In this document: piece by piece, positions 35,800 to 50,585 of the stretch
How the letters are laid out: each line of letters opens with the position of its first letter
Position numbering within the stretch: the stretch's first letter is position 1
NCBI GenBank assembly: GCA_000004985.1
Contig: GG738846.1
Direction: 5' to 3' (one strand)
Length of the DNA stretch: 64,000 nt
Source: Naegleria gruberi
Lineage: Eukaryota
The notes under the pieces: generated by a model
Databases searched by the model: none
Told to the model about the DNA's origin: nothing
Seen by the model: the letters and a program-made list of their open reading frames with translations, nothing else
Position numbers and translations under genes: made by a program

Positions 35800-36632
35800 C
35801 TGAGCAATAATTTTCTTACATTCCAATTGCATCTATTAAGGAAATGAATATTCTTTAAGAATCTCCGACACAACACCTCTAACGAAAAAAACCCTTAAAA
35901 CCCAACCGCTGATTAGTTGAACTAGACATTTGATACAAAAAAACAACACCAACAATATAAGAAGAACACACACATCAACAGTGTTTCTTTTATCCACCCT
36001 CTCTTACTCTATATTTTTACTTTAAAGAATATTCTTAATAGATAGACATGATGTTGAACAATAACAAGTTCAAGTATAACAAATTTTCAATTGTTGATTT
36101 TTCAACAGCAACCAATAATAATAATGATAATCATTCGACAAATCAAATACCAAAGAAGAGAGGAAGACCTTCAAAGAAGAAATGCACTACAACAACTGGT
36201 GGTGCTGCTCAAATGATTGTCAGATCGACAGAATTATTCAATACACAACAACACACATTTTCACCTTCCAAATTACAACCCTATGAAAATGAATTGAAAC
36301 AATTTTTCAATGAATTTTCACCAATTTTGAACAAGAAAAGAAAAATTGAAAAGAAGAAGAAACATTGTCAATCCATTACAAAATGTAATAGAGAAAATAA
36401 TAGAGAAACATTGAGTGAAGAAACTAGATCGAATCAATCCTTATCAAATTCATCCATTGATTCCATCACTCCACTTTTAACTTTCTCAACAATATCATCC
36501 TCAACTAATTCAATCAATAATTCTGTAATATCACCATTGCCACCATCTTTATCGTCCTCATCATTTGATTTGCCAATTAAGAGAAAAATAATAAGAACTT
36601 CAATATCAATAAAAGAATTATTAAATTAATAA
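35800..36632. repeat. Left arm of an inverted segmental duplication. Its partner is 49685-50585.
   Basis: The upstream promoter-proximal sequence (for example CCGACACAACACCTCTAACGAAAAAAACCCTTAAAACCCAACCGCTGATTAGTTGAACTAGACATT and AACACCAACAATATAAGAAGAACACACACATCAACAGTG) and the whole CDS are mirrored in reverse complement at 49685-50585. Similarity stops at the stop codon. Confidence 0.75.
36048..36629 (+). CDS. Small AT-hook protein, paralog family member A.
   Basis: 193 aa. Contains KYNKFSIVDF, the AT-hook PKKRGRPSKKK, RSTELF and FSPSKLQPYENELKQF, and a C-terminal KRKIIRTSISIKELLN. It is about 95% identical to the copy at 49688-50257. Confidence 0.65.
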   Translation: MMLNNNKFKYNKFSIVDFSTATNNNNDNHSTNQIPKKRGRPSKKKCTTTTGGAAQMIVRSTELFNTQQHTFSPSKLQPYENELKQFFNEFSPILNKKRKIEKKKKHCQSITKCNRENNRETLSEETRSNQSLSNSSIDSITPLLTFSTISSSTNSINNSVISPLPPSLSSSSFDLPIKRKIIRTSISIKELLN

Positions 36633-37152
36633 TCATGAATGTGATGGTCAGCGGCATGTGTTGCAAACGAAATGGAATTTTAAATTGTGTGACATTTGAA
36701 TAATTTGGATAATTTGGCAATTATAAGGAATAGATTGAGAACCAAGGAATTTAATGATGTTGTTAATTGGATGAAAATTGGTAATTTTAAACTCTAAATA
36801 CGGATTCTATTTCTAATAAATAGAGAGAATATGAACAATGATAAATTTCATGATTTGTAACCAACCATGTTTGAACCATCTCTTTGTATTTTTGGAAAGT
36901 GTGGAACACCAAGTTGACCAATATTCGATTACAACATCCAATTTAAGATTTTGAAAGGACAAATTAGTAGAAGCATGATCTCCTTCTCAAGAATCCTATT
37001 TTTTTAAAGGTCGTTCCTTTCTAAGTTGGTGGTGAATATTCACACAATATTCCTTCGGCATCTGTCAACACGATAAATTCGACCTAATGAATGTGGTCTG
37101 CCTTTTAATTTTCAAAAAGAAACAAAACTAAACACTAGCAACCAACAAAACC

Positions 37153-37692
37153 ATGACAAATTATAACAAGTTTTCCATCATTGAATTTACATCAAATTCT
37201 AACTATCAACAACACTCCAACAATAACTCAACTACATGTCAGAATTCAACACAACAAAAAGAACAACCAAAGAAAAGAGGAAGACCTGTCAAAACATCCA
37301 CATCTACTACTAATAATAACAATACACACATGATGATTGTAAAATCCACTGAAATGTTATCTACACATGTGTTTTCACCTTCCAAATTACAACCTTATGA
37401 ACATGTATTGACTCAATTTGTTACATGTGATTTTTCGAAAGCTCAACAACAACAATCCATGATTTCAAAAAAGAAGAAACAAGTGAGAAGGAATCAAAAC
37501 AAGGTGAATTGTTCAATAGAAAATGAATACTCTTCAACTTCAAATCAATCGAATGCTGACTCAATTGTACCATTATGCAATTTTCTTGCAACAAGCTCTA
37601 TACTTGATAATTCTAGATCTGAATTATCAAATAGCACTACAATGAAGAGGATTATCAGAACATCCATTTCAATAAAAGAATTATTAAATTAA
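37153..37692 (+). CDS. Small AT-hook protein, paralog family member B (divergent).
   Basis: 179 aa. Contains YNKFSIIEF, PKKRGRPVK, KSTEML, FSPSKLQPYEHVLTQF and a C-terminal MKRIIRTSISIKELLN. Confidence 0.6.
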   Translation: MTNYNKFSIIEFTSNSNYQQHSNNNSTTCQNSTQQKEQPKKRGRPVKTSTSTTNNNNTHMMIVKSTEMLSTHVFSPSKLQPYEHVLTQFVTCDFSKAQQQQSMISKKKKQVRRNQNKVNCSIENEYSSTSNQSNADSIVPLCNFLATSSILDNSRSELSNSTTMKRIIRTSISIKELLN

Positions 37693-47643: not shown

Positions 47644-48762
47644 TTACTTTCTAACACCAACTGGATGAGGTGCTTTGGCTGTGTAGGATTCATCCAAATA
47701 TTTGACTTCCTCAGTGGTGAGTTCAATATCCAAAGCAGCAATAGACGATTCAATATTCGATACTTTTGTGGCACCAACAATTGGACTGGTAACTCCTGGT
47801 TTCTTCAATAGCCAAGCAATAGCAATTTGAGCTGGTGAGACATTCTTCTTATTAGCCAATTCTGAAACTCTTCTCAAATTTTCCTTATCACCTTCAGTCA
47901 GGGTTTCTTGGAATTGTTTTTGAATGAAATCTGAATTTGCTCTCTTGGATTTCTGATCCTCATCATCATCATTGCTTGTTTTCTCAGAGTTGACAAATTC
48001 GTGAGCTCTTGCCAAAATTCCCTTAGCAAGTGGACTATATGGAGTTAAGGAAACTTTCTGATCCAAACACATTGGAATCATGTCTCTTTCCTCTTCTCTA
48101 TACATTAAATGATAGAGATTTTGCATGGAAACAAACTTGGTCAATCCCTTCTTATCAGCATAATGTTGAGCTTTAGCAAATTGCCAAGCAAACATTAAAG
48201 AGGCACCAATATATCTGATCTTTCCAGATTTTACCAAATCATGTAAAGTTTCCATGGTTTCTTCAATAGGAGTGTCTGGATCCCAACGATGAATAATATA
48301 TAAATCAATGTCTGTTTACAATATTCAGTCAACTGAACTTTGCAATTTTCAAAAATACTTACAATCAGTTCCCAATCTTTCCAATGATTCCTCAACAGCA
48401 TGCATAATATGCTTTCTCGACAATCCATGAGTATTCACCTTCTTATCATCACTCAACGGTAGGTACCTTTGTTCTCCACTCTTGTCAACCGGACCAAAAA
48501 CCTTAGTAGCAATAACAACTTCCTCTCTCGGAATGTTATTCTCCCTAATGAATTTACCCAAAATTCTCTCACTTTCACCATTCGAATAAAGGTTGGCAGT
48601 GTCGAAGAAGTTAATACCCAACTCCCAGGCCTTCTTGAGAATGATCATGGATTCTGGTTCTTCCAAAACCCAATCAAACCATTTTGGTGAGCCGAAACTC
48701 ATGCATCCGAGACAGATTTTGGAGACTTTCAAGCCAGTGTTACCCAAATTTTCATACTTCAT
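47644..48762 (-). CDS. Aldo-keto reductase (AKR, Kv-beta/aryl-alcohol dehydrogenase-like); 2 exons.
   Basis: Exons are 48365-48762 and 47644-48313. The intron is 48314-48364 (GTAAGTAT...AAACAG, 51 nt). The spliced junction gives ...LERLGTD|YIDLYIIHRWDPDTPIEETMETLHDLVKSGKIRYIGAS, a classic AKR motif. The N-terminus GLKVSKICLGCMSFG...FFDTANLYSNGESE is also typical. Confidence 0.8.
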
Positions 48763-49684
48763 CTTACGTTTCTTCTAATTGTGTTGTTTGTTTGTTTTTT
48801 TATTGTTTTGTTAATTGTACTCTAGAGTTTCTTTTTAAAGGAAAGAGAATTTGTACGAAAGTGCGAGCGAGGTCTTTTTGAAAATGTACTCGTACTTTGT
48901 TAATAAGTTAGATCCATTTGTTCAATTGTTAGTTGGTTATACTGTTTGTACTTGCAACTAATCAATCCTTCTGTTGTAAACCAATTTAAACAAGTCGATT
49001 TCATTTTACAAACATTCGAAATTAGCAACTGATTGAGAGAGTAAGGAAAGAATGAAAAGTTTAAGTAATGGGAAGCTAGTGTCTAGAATCAATTCGCAAG
49101 TTATTGAAGAGTGATCACCATTTACAAAATCAAAGTTTCAATTGGATTTGCATCTAATTATTCGTTGCATGAAACAAAACAAAACTTGAGAAAAACAAGT
49201 CATAACTGATAACTAGCTGTCATGTCACACTTTTAATTTCACCTTATCAAGTGGACTGCAATCTTGTTGAGTGGAGGAACTTTGGGTGCCTTATTCTTCT
49301 TGTGGCCAACTATTAGATGATAAATTAGAAGGAGTGTAATAAATTGTAAAGTTTATCCACTGGAAACAATGTTTTGAATTATCATAACAGCAGGTTGTCT
49401 TGGATGGTGCAATATCGAATATTCATCCAATTAGTTTGCAATAGTTTCCAAAAATAAAAAGAGATTGTTCAAACACGACTGACATTGTTATGTAAATTGG
49501 ATGGAAAGAGGCAATTTTGAAATCTAAATGTGGATTACACATCTATTATTTATATGAACAATGAAAAATTTCATCACATGTCCAAAGCACCTCAGTTTCA
49601 CACATGAACCGTGGCTCTTCTTGTTGTTGTGGCAAAAACTTGAACGAAAAGGAGAGGGAAAATGGACCAAAGATGATTATGATG

Positions 49685-50585
49685 ACATTAATTTAATAAT
49701 TCTTTTATTGATATTGAAGTTCTTATTATTTTTCTCTTAATTGGCAAATCAAATGATGAGGACACAGAACAAATTGTATTCGAATTATTGATTGAATTAG
49801 TTGAGGATGATATTGTTGAGAAAGTTAAAAGTGGAGTGATGGAATCAATGGATGAATTTGATGAGGATTGATTCGATCTTGTTTCTTCACTCAATGTTTC
49901 TCTATTATTTTCTCTATTACATTTTGTAATGAATTGACAATGTTTCTTCTTCTTTTCAATTTTGCTTTTCTTTTTCATAATTGGTGAAAATTCATTGAAA
50001 AATTGTTTCAATTCATTTTCATAGGGTTGTAATTTGGAAGGTGAAAATGTGTGTTGTTGTGTATTGAATAATTCTGTCGATCTGACAATCATTTGAGCAG
50101 CACCACCAGTTGTTGTAGTGCATTTCTTCTTTGAAGGTCTTCCTCTCTTCTTTGGTATTTGATTTGTCGAATGATTATCATTATTATTATTGGTTGCTGA
50201 AGAAAAATCAACAATTGAAAATTTGTTATACTTGAACTTGTTATTGTTCAACATCATGTCTATCTATTAAGAATATGTTCTTTGAAAAAGTTTAAATATA
50301 GAGAGAGTGAGAGAGGGTGGATATTTAAAAAAAAAACACTGTTGATGTGTGTGTTCTTCTTATATTGTTGGTGTTATAATTTGTTTTTTTTGAATAATGT
50401 CTAGTCCAACTAATCAGCGGTTGGGTTTCTAAGGGTTTTTTCGTTAGAGGTGTTGTGTCGGAGATTCTTAAATACAATTATTGCTTCTATCTGATATTTA
50501 AGATTTGGTAATTTGAAGGTGTGATGTCGGAGATTCTTAAAGAATATTCATTTCCTTAATGGTTGCAAATAGAATGGATAAGAAT
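49685..50585. repeat. Right arm of the inverted segmental duplication. Its partner is 35800-36632.
   Basis: See the left-arm entry. This arm also contains a local direct duplication of GTGTCGGAGATTCTTAAA at ~50455 and ~50525. Confidence 0.75.
49688..50257 (-). CDS. Small AT-hook protein, paralog family member A', a near-identical inverted copy of 36048-36629.
   Basis: 189 aa with the same motifs. It differs by a few substitutions and a short internal deletion (..NSNTICSVSSSFDLPIKRK..). Confidence 0.65.
   Translation of the reverse strand: MMLNNNKFKYNKFSIVDFSSATNNNNDNHSTNQIPKKRGRPSKKKCTTTTGGAAQMIVRSTELFNTQQHTFSPSKLQPYENELKQFFNEFSPIMKKKSKIEKKKKHCQFITKCNRENNRETLSEETRSNQSSSNSSIDSITPLLTFSTISSSTNSINNSNTICSVSSSFDLPIKRKIIRTSISIKELLN

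What the first reader, a model, noticed from the sequence alone, without database searches (positions are those of the whole stretch)
35800..50585. Lineage-specific family of small AT-hook proteins (4 paralogs in 64 kb), two of them in an inverted segmental duplication flanking a ~13 kb block that contains the CDK1 and BRCA2 homologs
Four genes (16460-16936 minus strand, 36048-36629 plus, 37153-37692 plus, 49688-50257 minus) encode ~180-190 aa proteins sharing five motifs: N-terminal KYNKFSI(I/V)(D/E)F, an AT-hook PKKRGRP(S/V)KK, (K/R)STE(L/M), FSPSKLQPYE, and an invariant C-terminal (M/K)KR(K)IIRTSISIKELLN-stop. Everything between the motifs is fast-evolving N/S/T-rich linker. I recognise no described domain other than the AT-hook. 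The 36048 and 49688 copies are ~95% identical, including ~250 bp of promoter. They are arranged as inverted repeats, which could mediate inversion of the intervening segment (CDK1-like, BRCA2, 5S rRNA, AKR). A small DNA-binding family under active duplication and decay (one copy frameshifted) is a candidate novel transcription-factor or chromatin-protein family.
Basis: seen in the sequence. Interest (0 to 1): 0.65.

Follow-up and report, generated by a model that had tools for sequence, protein, structure and literature searches.

The report
Naegleria-specific small AT-hook protein family
The window (Naegleria gruberi) holds five copies, three intact, one frameshifted and one relic, of an undescribed family of small, basic, mostly disordered AT-hook proteins; their invariant C-terminal tail looks like the peptide yeast MATalpha2 uses to recruit the Tup1 co-repressor, and that resemblance is untested.

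Summary
Four ORFs sit at the stated coordinates and share the stated motifs, and I found a fifth, internally deleted relic at 47458-47565(-). Copy C is identical to N. gruberi NAEGRDRAFT_61743. Copies A and B match no sequence in a 15-billion-protein collection, so they appear unannotated.

Profile searches found the family only in N. gruberi and in close environmental relatives. There are at least 9 gene models on at least 5 scaffolds, often clustered. No Pfam domain, viral hit or other taxon turned up.

The genes are translated and constrained: dN/dS is 0.27-0.46, and the last 13 codons differ among paralogs only by synonymous changes. In the inverted A/B pair the CDS is 97-100% identical while the flanks are 63-88% identical with indels. 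That pattern suggests an older duplication whose coding tract was homogenised by gene conversion, not an assembly artefact.

AlphaFold predicts disorder, except for two paired strands that frame the AT-hook and a short C-terminal helix. The tail, ISIK(E/D)LLN-COOH, matches the Tup1-binding IPIKDLLN of MATalpha2. Copley (2016) found Tup-like and Groucho-like genes in N. gruberi but no transcription factors bearing interaction motifs.

Best reading: AT-hook DNA tethers that recruit a partner, possibly Tup/Groucho. The partner step is inferred. Inversion between the arms was not tested.

The parts
36048..36629 (+). Copy A, 193 aa, intact and unannotated; this is the left-arm gene
   Evidence: ORF. 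HMM E = 1.7e-90. The exact sequence is absent from the 15-billion-protein collection.
36075..36101 (+). N-terminal motif of A, YNKFSIVDF (family pattern K-[FLI]-S-[IVF]-[IV]-[DEQ]-F)
   Evidence: Alignments. In copy C this motif is predicted as a beta strand (residues 6-13, pLDDT about 76) paired with the mid motif.
36150..36176 (+). AT-hook of A, PKKRGRPSK
   Evidence: P-[KR]-KRGRP-x-K is invariant in all members. Pfam AT_hook is sub-threshold. The profile aligns to the GLYR1 AT-hook in the PDB sequences.
36213..36239 (+). Mid motif of A, MIVRSTELF, lying 6-12 residues after the AT-hook
   Evidence: Motif table. In C it is predicted as a strand (residues 60-68, pLDDT about 84).
36579..36626 (+). 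C-terminal motif of A, KRKIIRTSISIKELLN-stop (IxIxxLL type)
   Evidence: Invariant S-I-S, E/D, L and N in all members. The last 13 codons differ among A, C and D only by synonymous changes. Predicted as a short helix with pLDDT 83-86.
49688..50257 (-). Copy B, 189 aa, intact and unannotated; this is the right-arm gene
   Evidence: ORF. HMM E = 2.6e-91. 95% protein identity to A. Not in the protein collection.
37153..37692 (+). Copy C, 179 aa, identical to N. gruberi NAEGRDRAFT_61743 / XP_002682599 / D2UYY1; in tandem with A
   Evidence: Identical to P0002. An ortholog on metagenome contig L001 is 96.8% identical across the C-CDK junction.
16462..16918 (-). Copy D: one frameshift near 16675, no FSPSKLQP motif, intact C-terminal motif
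   Evidence: Three-frame translation. Reconstruction. HMM hits in two frames. No convincing intron rescues the frame.
47458..47565 (-). Relic E: the first 10 codons of a C-type copy (MTNYNKFSII) joined to a decayed last ~25 codons; about 430 bp are deleted internally; it lies about 75 bp upstream of a 5S rRNA gene
   Evidence: blastn gives 37144-37182 vs 47565-47528 (95%) and 37617-37692 vs 47524-47460 (82%).
35513..36047 (+). Left-arm upstream homology (promoter side), 63-88% identical to the right arm, with indels
50258..50738 (-). Right-arm upstream homology; it contains a 69-bp tandem duplication (50448-50479 and 50517-50548 both match 35847-35878)
   Evidence: repeat pairs I3 and I5.
36631..49686 (.). 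Block between the two arm genes: copy C, CDK (37890-38879 -), a 258-aa ORF, BRCA2 (40157-44911 +), two ORFs of unknown function, 5S rRNA (47263-47381 -), relic E, and AKR (47644-48762 -)

Best explanation
These genes belong to a protein family seen only in Naegleria gruberi and its close relatives. The proteins are small (131-254 aa), basic (pI about 10) and largely disordered.

Shown:
- The genes are real and under purifying selection.
- The shared architecture is: an N-terminal strand motif (K-F-S-I-V-D/E-F), one canonical AT-hook (PKKRGRPxK), a second strand motif (M-I-V-K-S-T-E), a basic patch, a fast-evolving S/T/N-rich linker, and an invariant tail (R-x-S-I-S-I-K-E/D-L-L-N-COOH).
- The family grows and decays locally, by tandem and inverted duplication, frameshift and internal deletion.

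Inferred:
- The AT-hook, possibly held in a loop between the two paired strands, tethers the protein to the minor groove of AT-rich DNA.
- The C-terminal IxIxxLL peptide docks a partner. The most specific candidate is the WD40 propeller of the Tup-like or Groucho-like co-repressor that N. gruberi encodes, which would make these proteins small DNA-tethered repressor adaptors.
- The near-identity of the A and B coding regions against diverged flanks is best explained by gene conversion between the inverted arms. The same homology could also support inversion of the 13-kb block.
For: Family and distribution:
- A full HMMER scan of 1.84 billion representatives and two profile/word searches recover only N. 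gruberi models and short environmental contigs. The N. gruberi models are 61743, 82132, 75103, 75105, 76067, P0026, P0027 and P0028, on at least 5 scaffolds. Three sit on one 175-kb scaffold and two are adjacent on a 207-kb scaffold.
- All other hits are generic multi-AT-hook proteins.

Coding constraint:
- dN/dS is 0.46 (A-B), 0.39 (C vs its ortholog) and 0.27-0.38 (A/C/D, where dS is 1 or more).
- The last 13 codons show 4-5 synonymous and 0 non-synonymous differences in each pair of paralogs.

Architecture:
- Alignments and the motif table with pI 9.6-10.1 and 37-47% S/T/N/Q.
- AlphaFold gives mean pLDDT 50-54, but strands 6-13 and 60-68 reach pLDDT 76-84 and flank the AT-hook, and the C-terminal helix reaches pLDDT 83-86.

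Co-repressor lead:
- MATalpha2 begins MNKIPIKDLLN (PMC10163088). Copley 2016 (PMC4943189), citing Komachi et al. 1994, states that Ile4, Leu9 and Leu10 are required for binding the Tup1 WD40 domain.
- The family tail ISIKELLN (ISIKDLLN in P0027 and P0028) matches all three critical positions and also K, D/E and N.
- The extended pattern IxIK[DE]LLN is expected about 0.2 times per proteome of this composition.
- Copley 2016 reports both a Tup_N-containing protein and a basal Groucho-like WD40 protein in N. gruberi, suggests that Tup-type pockets may bind EH1-like motifs lacking the first Phe, and found no EH1 or WRPW motif on any Naegleria transcription-factor domain.

Gene conversion:
- The CDS is 97-100% identical, the promoter blocks are about 86% identical, and the downstream region is below 50% apart from one patch.
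- Between strains, copy C shows the opposite pattern. Its CDS is more diverged than its flanks, so whole-CDS constraint cannot explain why A and B are so alike.
Against: - No binding, localisation or expression data exist for any member. No paper mentions the gene identifiers.
- The bare IxIxxLL pattern is common: about 300 are expected per proteome, and 2 unrelated instances occur in this window. I found the resemblance after the fact, by comparing the motif with known short motifs.
- The motif is at the C-terminus here and at the N-terminus in alpha2.
- The Naegleria Groucho-like pocket is atypical (Leu at a key aromatic position).
- A single AT-hook binds DNA weakly on its own (general knowledge). 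It is below Pfam's threshold and could serve mainly as a nuclear localisation signal.
- The N-terminal motif fails the EH1 pattern. Its first hydrophobic residue varies (F/L/I) and position 7 is S/T.
- The AlphaFold models have low overall confidence (pTM 0.14-0.21), so the strand pairing is tentative.
- P0027 as annotated lacks the N-terminal motif.
- The evidence for gene conversion is moderate: about 23 mismatches in 165 promoter bases against 6 in 115 synonymous sites.
Confidence: 0.45

Rival explanations
1. The proteins are HMGA-like architectural or chromatin-associated proteins that do not recruit Tup/Groucho. The AT-hook binds AT-rich DNA. The terminal motifs serve self-association (for example beta-strand pairing into dimers that bring two AT-hooks together) or bind some other partner (SUMO, a kinase, an import or export receptor, a degradation factor).
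For: There is one canonical AT-hook, a basic pI and disorder. AlphaFold pairs the N-terminal and mid motifs as strands. IVDF[ST] also resembles SIM-type hydrophobic-acidic strands (my own knowledge). The bare IxIxxLL pattern is frequent by chance.
Against: This reading does not explain why the tail matches alpha2 at seven of eight positions in P0027/P0028 and at six of eight plus D/E in the window copies, including non-hydrophobic ones. HMGA-defining features are absent: there are not three hooks and there is no acidic tail.
Confidence: 0.35
2. The ORFs are not functional genes. They are chance ORFs in low-complexity AT-rich DNA, or remnants or cargo of a mobile element whose inverted arms are its termini.
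For: Three of the four window copies are unannotated. One copy is frameshifted and one is a relic. The linkers are low-complexity.
Against: dN/dS is below 0.5 in every comparison, and the paralogs have dS of 1 or more yet keep identical peptide motifs through synonymous-only changes. Start and stop positions are conserved. An ortholog is kept in another strain. No transposase or viral relative was found. The arm homology is promoter plus CDS, not terminal repeats with target-site duplications.
Confidence: 0.03
3. The two near-identical arms are an assembly artefact, such as a mis-joined or collapsed repeat or an allelic haplotype placed in inverted orientation.
For: N. gruberi was assembled from shotgun reads. 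Other family copies on small scaffolds are 87-93% identical to each other, so similar repeats do exist that could mislead an assembler.
Against: The arms differ by 17 substitutions, a 12-bp indel in the CDS, a 69-bp duplication and other indels upstream. They have entirely different outer and inner flanks. The window contains no N. The C-CDK junction inside the block is confirmed by an independent metagenome contig.
Confidence: 0.05
4. The A/B pair is simply a young duplication without gene conversion. On this view the CDS looks more similar than the flanks because the AT-rich promoter mutates faster and accumulates indels.
For: dS(A,B) = 0.054 is of the same order as the divergence between strains. 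The promoter differences include slippage-type indels.
Against: Ungapped promoter blocks are about 14% diverged against about 5% at synonymous sites. The identity falls away at about 19 bp before the ATG and at the stop codon. Remote patches of 72-79% identity up to about 500 bp upstream and, downstream of the stop, about 240-310 bp (left arm) / 210-290 bp (right arm) indicate an older and larger duplication.
Confidence: 0.2

Closest known systems
Yeast MATalpha2 N-terminal Tup1-interaction motif (IxIxxLL; MNKIPIKDLLN)
   Same: It is a terminal, disordered peptide on a DNA-binding protein. The family tail I-S-I-K-E/D-L-L-N matches I-P-I-K-D-L-L-N at the three mutation-defined positions (I4, L9, L10) and also at K, D/E and N. 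N. gruberi has a Tup_N-containing homolog.
   Different: The motif is at the C-terminus, not the N-terminus. The DNA-binding part is a single AT-hook, not a homeodomain. There is no homology outside the 8-mer, and binding is untested.
EH1 (engrailed homology 1, FxIxxIL) Groucho/TLE-interaction motifs of metazoan and ichthyosporean transcription factors
   Same: Both are short hydrophobic peptides in disordered regions of DNA-binding proteins. The tail fits the [VI]xx[IL][LM] core that Copley used. The N-terminal motif begins F-S-I, as many EH1 motifs do. N. gruberi has a basal Groucho-like WD40 protein.
   Different: The tail lacks the initial Phe. The N-terminal motif has F and S/T at positions 6 and 7, its first residue varies (F/L/I), and AlphaFold predicts it as a paired strand. 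The Naegleria Groucho-like pocket has Leu in place of the aromatic residue.
HMGA (HMG-I/Y) proteins
   Same: Both are small, basic, intrinsically disordered proteins with a canonical R-G-R-P AT-hook.
   Different: There is one hook here instead of three, and no acidic C-terminal tail. The conserved N-terminal, mid and C-terminal motifs are absent from HMGA, and there is no sequence homology beyond the hook.
Single-AT-hook accessory segments in larger proteins (for example GLYR1/NPAC, the best PDB sequence match)
   Same: The hook sequence is nearly identical: (S/M)P(R/K)KRGRPPK.
   Different: In those proteins the hook is an accessory to folded domains. Here it is the only recognisable DNA-binding element of a 130-250 aa protein.

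Membership tests
AT-hook motif (Pfam PF02178) | An R-G-R-P core flanked by basic residues | tested here: met
   P-[KR]-K-R-G-R-P-x-K is invariant in all 11 aligned members and is also present in the later hits (RRGRP in two). It aligns to the GLYR1 AT-hook.
AT-hook motif (Pfam PF02178) | A score above the Pfam gathering threshold (17.4 bits) | tested here: not met
   Scores are 7.7-12.5 bits. A single 13-residue hook rarely reaches the threshold.
AT-hook motif (Pfam PF02178) | Binding to the minor groove of AT-rich DNA | not testable with these tools
   This needs EMSA or footprinting.
HMGA | Three AT-hooks and an acidic C-terminal tail | tested here: not met
   There is one hook per protein. 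The tail is basic and hydrophobic, and pI is 9.6-10.1.
alpha2-type Tup1-interaction motif | Hydrophobic residues spaced I-x-I-x-x-L-L in a disordered terminal segment | tested here: met
   The pattern is I-S-I-[KRQ]-[ED]-L-L in every member whose sequence was read except P0013, which has I-S-L-K-E-I-L. The alpha2 sequence comes from PMC10163088 and the critical residues from PMC4943189.
alpha2-type Tup1-interaction motif | A Tup1-type WD40 co-repressor in the same organism | not tested
   Taken from the literature only. Copley 2016 reports a Tup_N hit and a Groucho-like WD40 protein in N. gruberi. I did not retrieve the sequences.
alpha2-type Tup1-interaction motif | Physical, mutation-sensitive binding to the WD40 propeller, and repression | not testable with these tools
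It needs AF-multimer, pull-down or a reporter assay.
EH1 (Groucho interaction motif) | F-x-I-x-x-I-L with a conserved initial Phe | tested here: not met
   The tail starts with Ile. The N-terminal motif is [FLI]-S-[IVF]-[IV]-[DEQ]-F-[ST], so positions 6 and 7 do not fit and the Phe is not invariant.
Transposable element with terminal inverted repeats | Inverted termini at the element ends, a transposase or related gene, and many copies | tested here: not met
   The arms are promoter plus CDS of a host-like gene. The block between them holds CDK, BRCA2, AKR and 5S. No transposase domain and no viral relative were found. Target-site duplications were not examined.

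The most novel reading that the evidence does not exclude
This AT-hook family is the missing set of DNA-tethered partners for Naegleria's Tup-like and Groucho-like co-repressors, docking through the C-terminal IxIxxLL peptide. 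If so, recruitment of WD40 co-repressors by EH1/alpha2-type peptides would predate opisthokonts and exist in Discoba. That would support Copley's proposal that both co-repressor lineages and their peptide-docking mode go back to the last eukaryotic common ancestor. It would also show that a minimal 'AT-hook plus docking peptide' protein can act as a repressor.
Probability: 0.25. Interest if true: 0.75.

Novelty: new variant of a known kind. Interest (0 to 1): 0.42.

Why it matters
By itself this is one more lineage-specific orphan family in a protist. It shows how such families expand (tandem and inverted duplication), stay alike (gene conversion) and decay (frameshift, internal deletion), and how badly they are annotated: three of four window copies are missing, and one model elsewhere fuses two genes.

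It becomes more interesting through the C-terminal peptide. Copley (2016) found Tup-like and Groucho-like co-repressors in Naegleria but no transcription factors with interaction motifs. That left open whether peptide-mediated co-repressor recruitment exists outside opisthokonts. This family offers a concrete candidate that can be tested cheaply, with a 15-residue peptide against two WD40 domains.

Tried and rejected
- Pfam scan of all copies: only a sub-threshold AT_hook and noise.
- Profile search against PDB sequences: only AT-hook matches.
- Scans of IMG/VR viral contigs and JGI metagenome contigs with the family profile: pattern matches but no relatives.
- Literature search for the gene, protein and UniProt identifiers: nothing. 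'Naegleria gruberi' + 'AT-hook' and + 'lineage-specific expansion': nothing relevant.
- Supplementary files of Copley 2016: not held, so the accessions of the Naegleria Tup and Groucho proteins were not obtained.
- Exact-sequence lookup of the N. gruberi models (P0002, P0012): not indexed, so I could not read the other N. gruberi loci.
- Intron rescue of copy D: 44 formal GT..AG solutions exist. Those that keep all motifs need introns of 19-34 nt, and those of plausible length delete conserved segments, so none is convincing.
- EH1 reading of the N-terminal motif: rejected as a strict match, because the first residue varies, positions 6 and 7 are wrong, and the motif is predicted to be a paired strand.
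- A mirrored origin of relic E (B to E mirroring A to C): left open. No flank homology beyond the gene fragments was found, and the AKR gene lies between B and E.
- Fold search with the models: not run, because pTM of 0.14-0.21 would give meaningless matches.

Full report
**Source and observation.** The window is AT-rich eukaryotic DNA (about 33% GC). The ORF at 37153-37692(+) is identical to 'predicted protein [Naegleria gruberi]' NAEGRDRAFT_61743 / XP_002682599 / D2UYY1, which lies on a 1.0-Mb scaffold. The window is therefore N. gruberi.

A is 36048-36629(+), 193 aa. B is 49688-50257(-), 189 aa. C is 37153-37692(+), 179 aa. D is 16462-16918(-), read in two frames. They align over the motifs listed. 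A family HMM run over the six-frame translation of the window scores them at E = 1e-91 to 1e-19 and scores nothing else strongly.

At about 47458-47565(-), the first ten codons of a C-type gene (MTNYNKFSII, 95% identical in DNA to C) are joined directly to a decayed version of the last ~25 codons (82% identical). About 430 bp are lost internally. This relic lies about 75 bp upstream of a 5S rRNA gene.

**Copy D.** D has one frameshift near 16675. The downstream frame still shows DNA-level and protein-level homology to A (EKKQEQSIGKC against EKKKKHCQSITKC) and a perfect tail. D lacks the FSPSKLQP motif. No convincing intron restores the frame. The frameshift is either recent or a sequencing error.

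**The inverted duplication.** The arms are 98% identical (36029-36523 / 49782-50276) and 100% identical (36554-36630 / 49687-49763), and about 13.06 kb separate them.

- A 60-nt sliding comparison shows 97-100% identity across the CDS, apart from one indel patch.
- Identity is only 63-88%, with several indels, in the 220 bp upstream. The indels include a 69-bp tandem duplication in the right arm.
- Patches of 72-75% identity reach 35533/50716.
- Downstream of the stop codon, identity is below 50% except for a 72-79% patch at 36868-36946 / 49395-49475.

The high-identity tract therefore nearly coincides with the coding sequence, running from 19 bp before the ATG to the stop codon. Synonymous divergence between A and B is 0.054, whereas ungapped promoter blocks differ by about 14%.

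Selection on the whole CDS cannot explain this pattern. The same kind of gene, copy C, compared with its ortholog on metagenome contig L001 (96.8% identity over 1.9 kb), shows the opposite: 17 mismatches in 516 coding positions, 0 in 365 flanking non-coding positions, and 6 in 990 positions of the neighbouring CDK. I therefore read A/B as an older and larger inverted duplication whose coding tract has been homogenised by gene conversion. This is an inference with moderate support.

The arms are not an assembly artefact. They differ by substitutions and indels, their flanks are unrelated, and the window has no N. Whether they mediate inversion of the block could not be tested.

The block contains copy C, a CDK with a PSTSIRE motif, a 258-aa ORF, BRCA2, two ORFs of unknown function, a 5S rRNA gene, relic E and a two-exon aldo-keto reductase.

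**Are these real genes?** Yes.

- dN/dS is 0.46 (A-B), 0.39 (C against its ortholog) and 0.27-0.38 among A, C and D, whose synonymous sites are saturated (dS 1.0-1.8).
- In the last 13 codons (IIRTSISIKELLN), each pair among A, C and D differs by 4-5 synonymous changes and no non-synonymous change. It is the peptide that is conserved, not the DNA.

**Distribution.** I ran a profile scan of 1.84 billion representative proteins and two further profile/word searches of 5.8 billion clusters. They recover only N. gruberi proteins and a few short environmental contigs.

- N. gruberi proteins: NAEGRDRAFT_82132, P0027 and P0028 on one 175-kb scaffold; the adjacent models 75103 and 75105 on a 207-kb scaffold; 76067; and P0026.
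- Environmental contigs: P0001, P0004, P0009 and P0013 (the three contigs I traced, for P0001, P0004 and P0013, are all from sample ERR1078381), and P0006 from SRR25266754.
- Everything else is a generic multi-AT-hook protein.
- Model 75103 is a fusion of two neighbouring family genes. Its first 99 residues are 93% identical to P0013, and the remainder is 87% identical to 76067.
- The exact sequences of A and B are absent from a 15-billion-sequence collection, so they are unannotated.
- There were no hits in viral contigs or JGI metagenomes, no Pfam family, and no paper naming these genes.

The absence of N. fowleri or N. lovaniensis homologs is weak evidence that those species lack the family. 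The family is poorly annotated even in N. gruberi, and I could not search those genomes.

**Architecture.** All members are 131-254 aa, have pI 9.6-10.1 and are 37-47% S/T/N/Q. They share five elements:

1. K-[FLI]-S-[IVF]-[IV]-[DEQ]-F within the first 4-18 residues.
2. P-[KR]-KRGRP-x-K.
3. M-[FIMV]-[IV]-x-[STK]-T-E, lying 6-12 residues after the hook.
4. A basic patch.
5. [KR]-x-[IKT]-[IV]-R-[TYS]-S-I-S-[IL]-[KRQ]-[ED]-[LI]-L-N-stop.

AlphaFold2 with the 11-sequence alignment gives mean pLDDT 54. It nevertheless predicts the N-terminal motif (residues 6-13, pLDDT about 76) and the mid motif (residues 60-68, about 84) as the only two strands in the model, which are therefore paired with each other, with the AT-hook in the loop between them. 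It also predicts a short helix in the tail (pLDDT about 86) (the shallower alignment agrees on the tail).

The N-terminal motif is thus more likely structural, or a dimerisation strand, than a docking peptide. This conclusion is tentative because pTM is only 0.21.

**Mechanism.** The AT-hook is canonical. It is the same sequence as the GLYR1 hook, which is the only PDB match, and it is the only recognisable DNA-binding element.

The tail is the most conserved feature, and it resembles a defined co-repressor docking peptide. Yeast MATalpha2 begins MNKIPIKDLLN (Table 2 of PMC10163088). According to Copley 2016, citing Komachi et al. 1994, mutation of Ile4, Leu9 or Leu10 abolishes binding to the Tup1 WD40 domain, and IxIxxLL is an EH1-like motif lacking the first Phe. 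The family tail is ISIKELLN, or ISIKDLLN in P0027 and P0028. In P0027/P0028 seven of the eight positions are identical to alpha2; in ISIKELLN six are identical and D/E is conservative.

The same paper makes three further points:

- N. gruberi encodes both a Tup_N-containing protein and a basal Groucho-like WD40 protein.
- Tup-type pockets may bind EH1-like motifs without the Phe.
- No EH1 or WRPW motif could be found on any Naegleria transcription-factor domain.

That screen would have missed this family. The single hook is not a listed transcription-factor domain, and many copies are unannotated or mis-modelled.

There are caveats. The bare IxIxxLL pattern is common: about 300 are expected per proteome, and two unrelated instances occur in this window. 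The extended IxIK[DE]LLN pattern is rare, at about 0.2 expected. The comparison was made after the fact. The motif sits at the opposite terminus from alpha2. Nothing has been tested.

I give about 0.25-0.3 to the specific Tup/Groucho model. I give about 0.5-0.6 to the general model of an AT-hook tether with a partner-docking tail.

**Comparison and novelty.** The family is not HMGA. It has one hook, no acidic tail and no homology beyond the hook. It is not a strict EH1 carrier and it is not a transposon.

It is an undescribed, lineage-restricted architecture built from a known DNA-binding motif and a tail that fits a known class of docking peptide. I classify it as a new variant of a known kind.

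Interest is moderate. As an orphan family with an ordinary duplication history it would be low. The concrete and cheaply testable link to the open question of co-repressor recruitment outside opisthokonts raises it.

Noticed in passing
window 47458-47565 (-): A fifth family copy, an internally deleted C-type relic. It sits about 75 bp upstream of the 5S rRNA gene at 47263-47381(-) and just downstream of the AKR gene. On the minus strand the order B ... E mirrors A ... C on the plus strand. The original inverted duplication may therefore have covered the A-C pair, but no flank homology supports this.
   Followed up: partly
window 37153-37692 vs L001 61-576: Between strains, the copy C CDS is more diverged (17/516 mismatches plus 24 gap columns, clustered around 37590-37700) than its non-coding flanks (0/365) and the adjacent CDK (6/990). 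This could reflect conversion from paralogs, diversifying selection, or slippage in low-complexity linkers.
   Followed up: partly
window 11778-11937 (+) and 47253-47412 (-): Two dispersed 5S rRNA genes in opposite orientation, 89% identical over 160 nt. The shared stretch includes about 31 nt of upstream flank.
   Followed up: no
window 50448-50548 (right-arm promoter): A 69-bp tandem duplication of a promoter segment (TTTAAGAATCTCCGACA...) is present only in the right arm.
   Followed up: partly
N. gruberi NAEGRDRAFT_75103 (P0010), another scaffold: The annotated 252-aa model fuses two adjacent family genes. Residues 1-99 are 93% identical to P0013, and residues 99-252 are 87% identical to NAEGRDRAFT_76067. 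The family seems systematically mis-annotated or unannotated.
   Followed up: yes
window 40619-41680 (+), inside BRCA2 ORF 40157-44911: About 20 short repeats, P(A/S)(E/T)(T/D)(F/G)GFVSAS, alternating in two flavours (ETFGFVSAS and ATDGFVSAS). They are probably a large, divergent BRC-repeat array.
   Followed up: no
window 51122-52840 (-): A single 572-aa ORF combines a ubiquitin-conjugating (UQ_con) domain with an F-box-like domain, which is an unusual pairing.
   Followed up: no
window 55444-56967, inside ORF 55504-57225 (-): A 72-bp tandem array of about 20 units encodes 24-residue LRR_6-type leucine-rich repeats. Unit identity is 83-94%, which suggests recent expansion or homogenisation.
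   Followed up: no
window 37890-38879 (-): The CDK next to copy C carries PSTSIRE instead of the canonical PSTAIRE. It is identical at protein level in the metagenome relative (0 non-synonymous, 6 synonymous differences).
   Followed up: no
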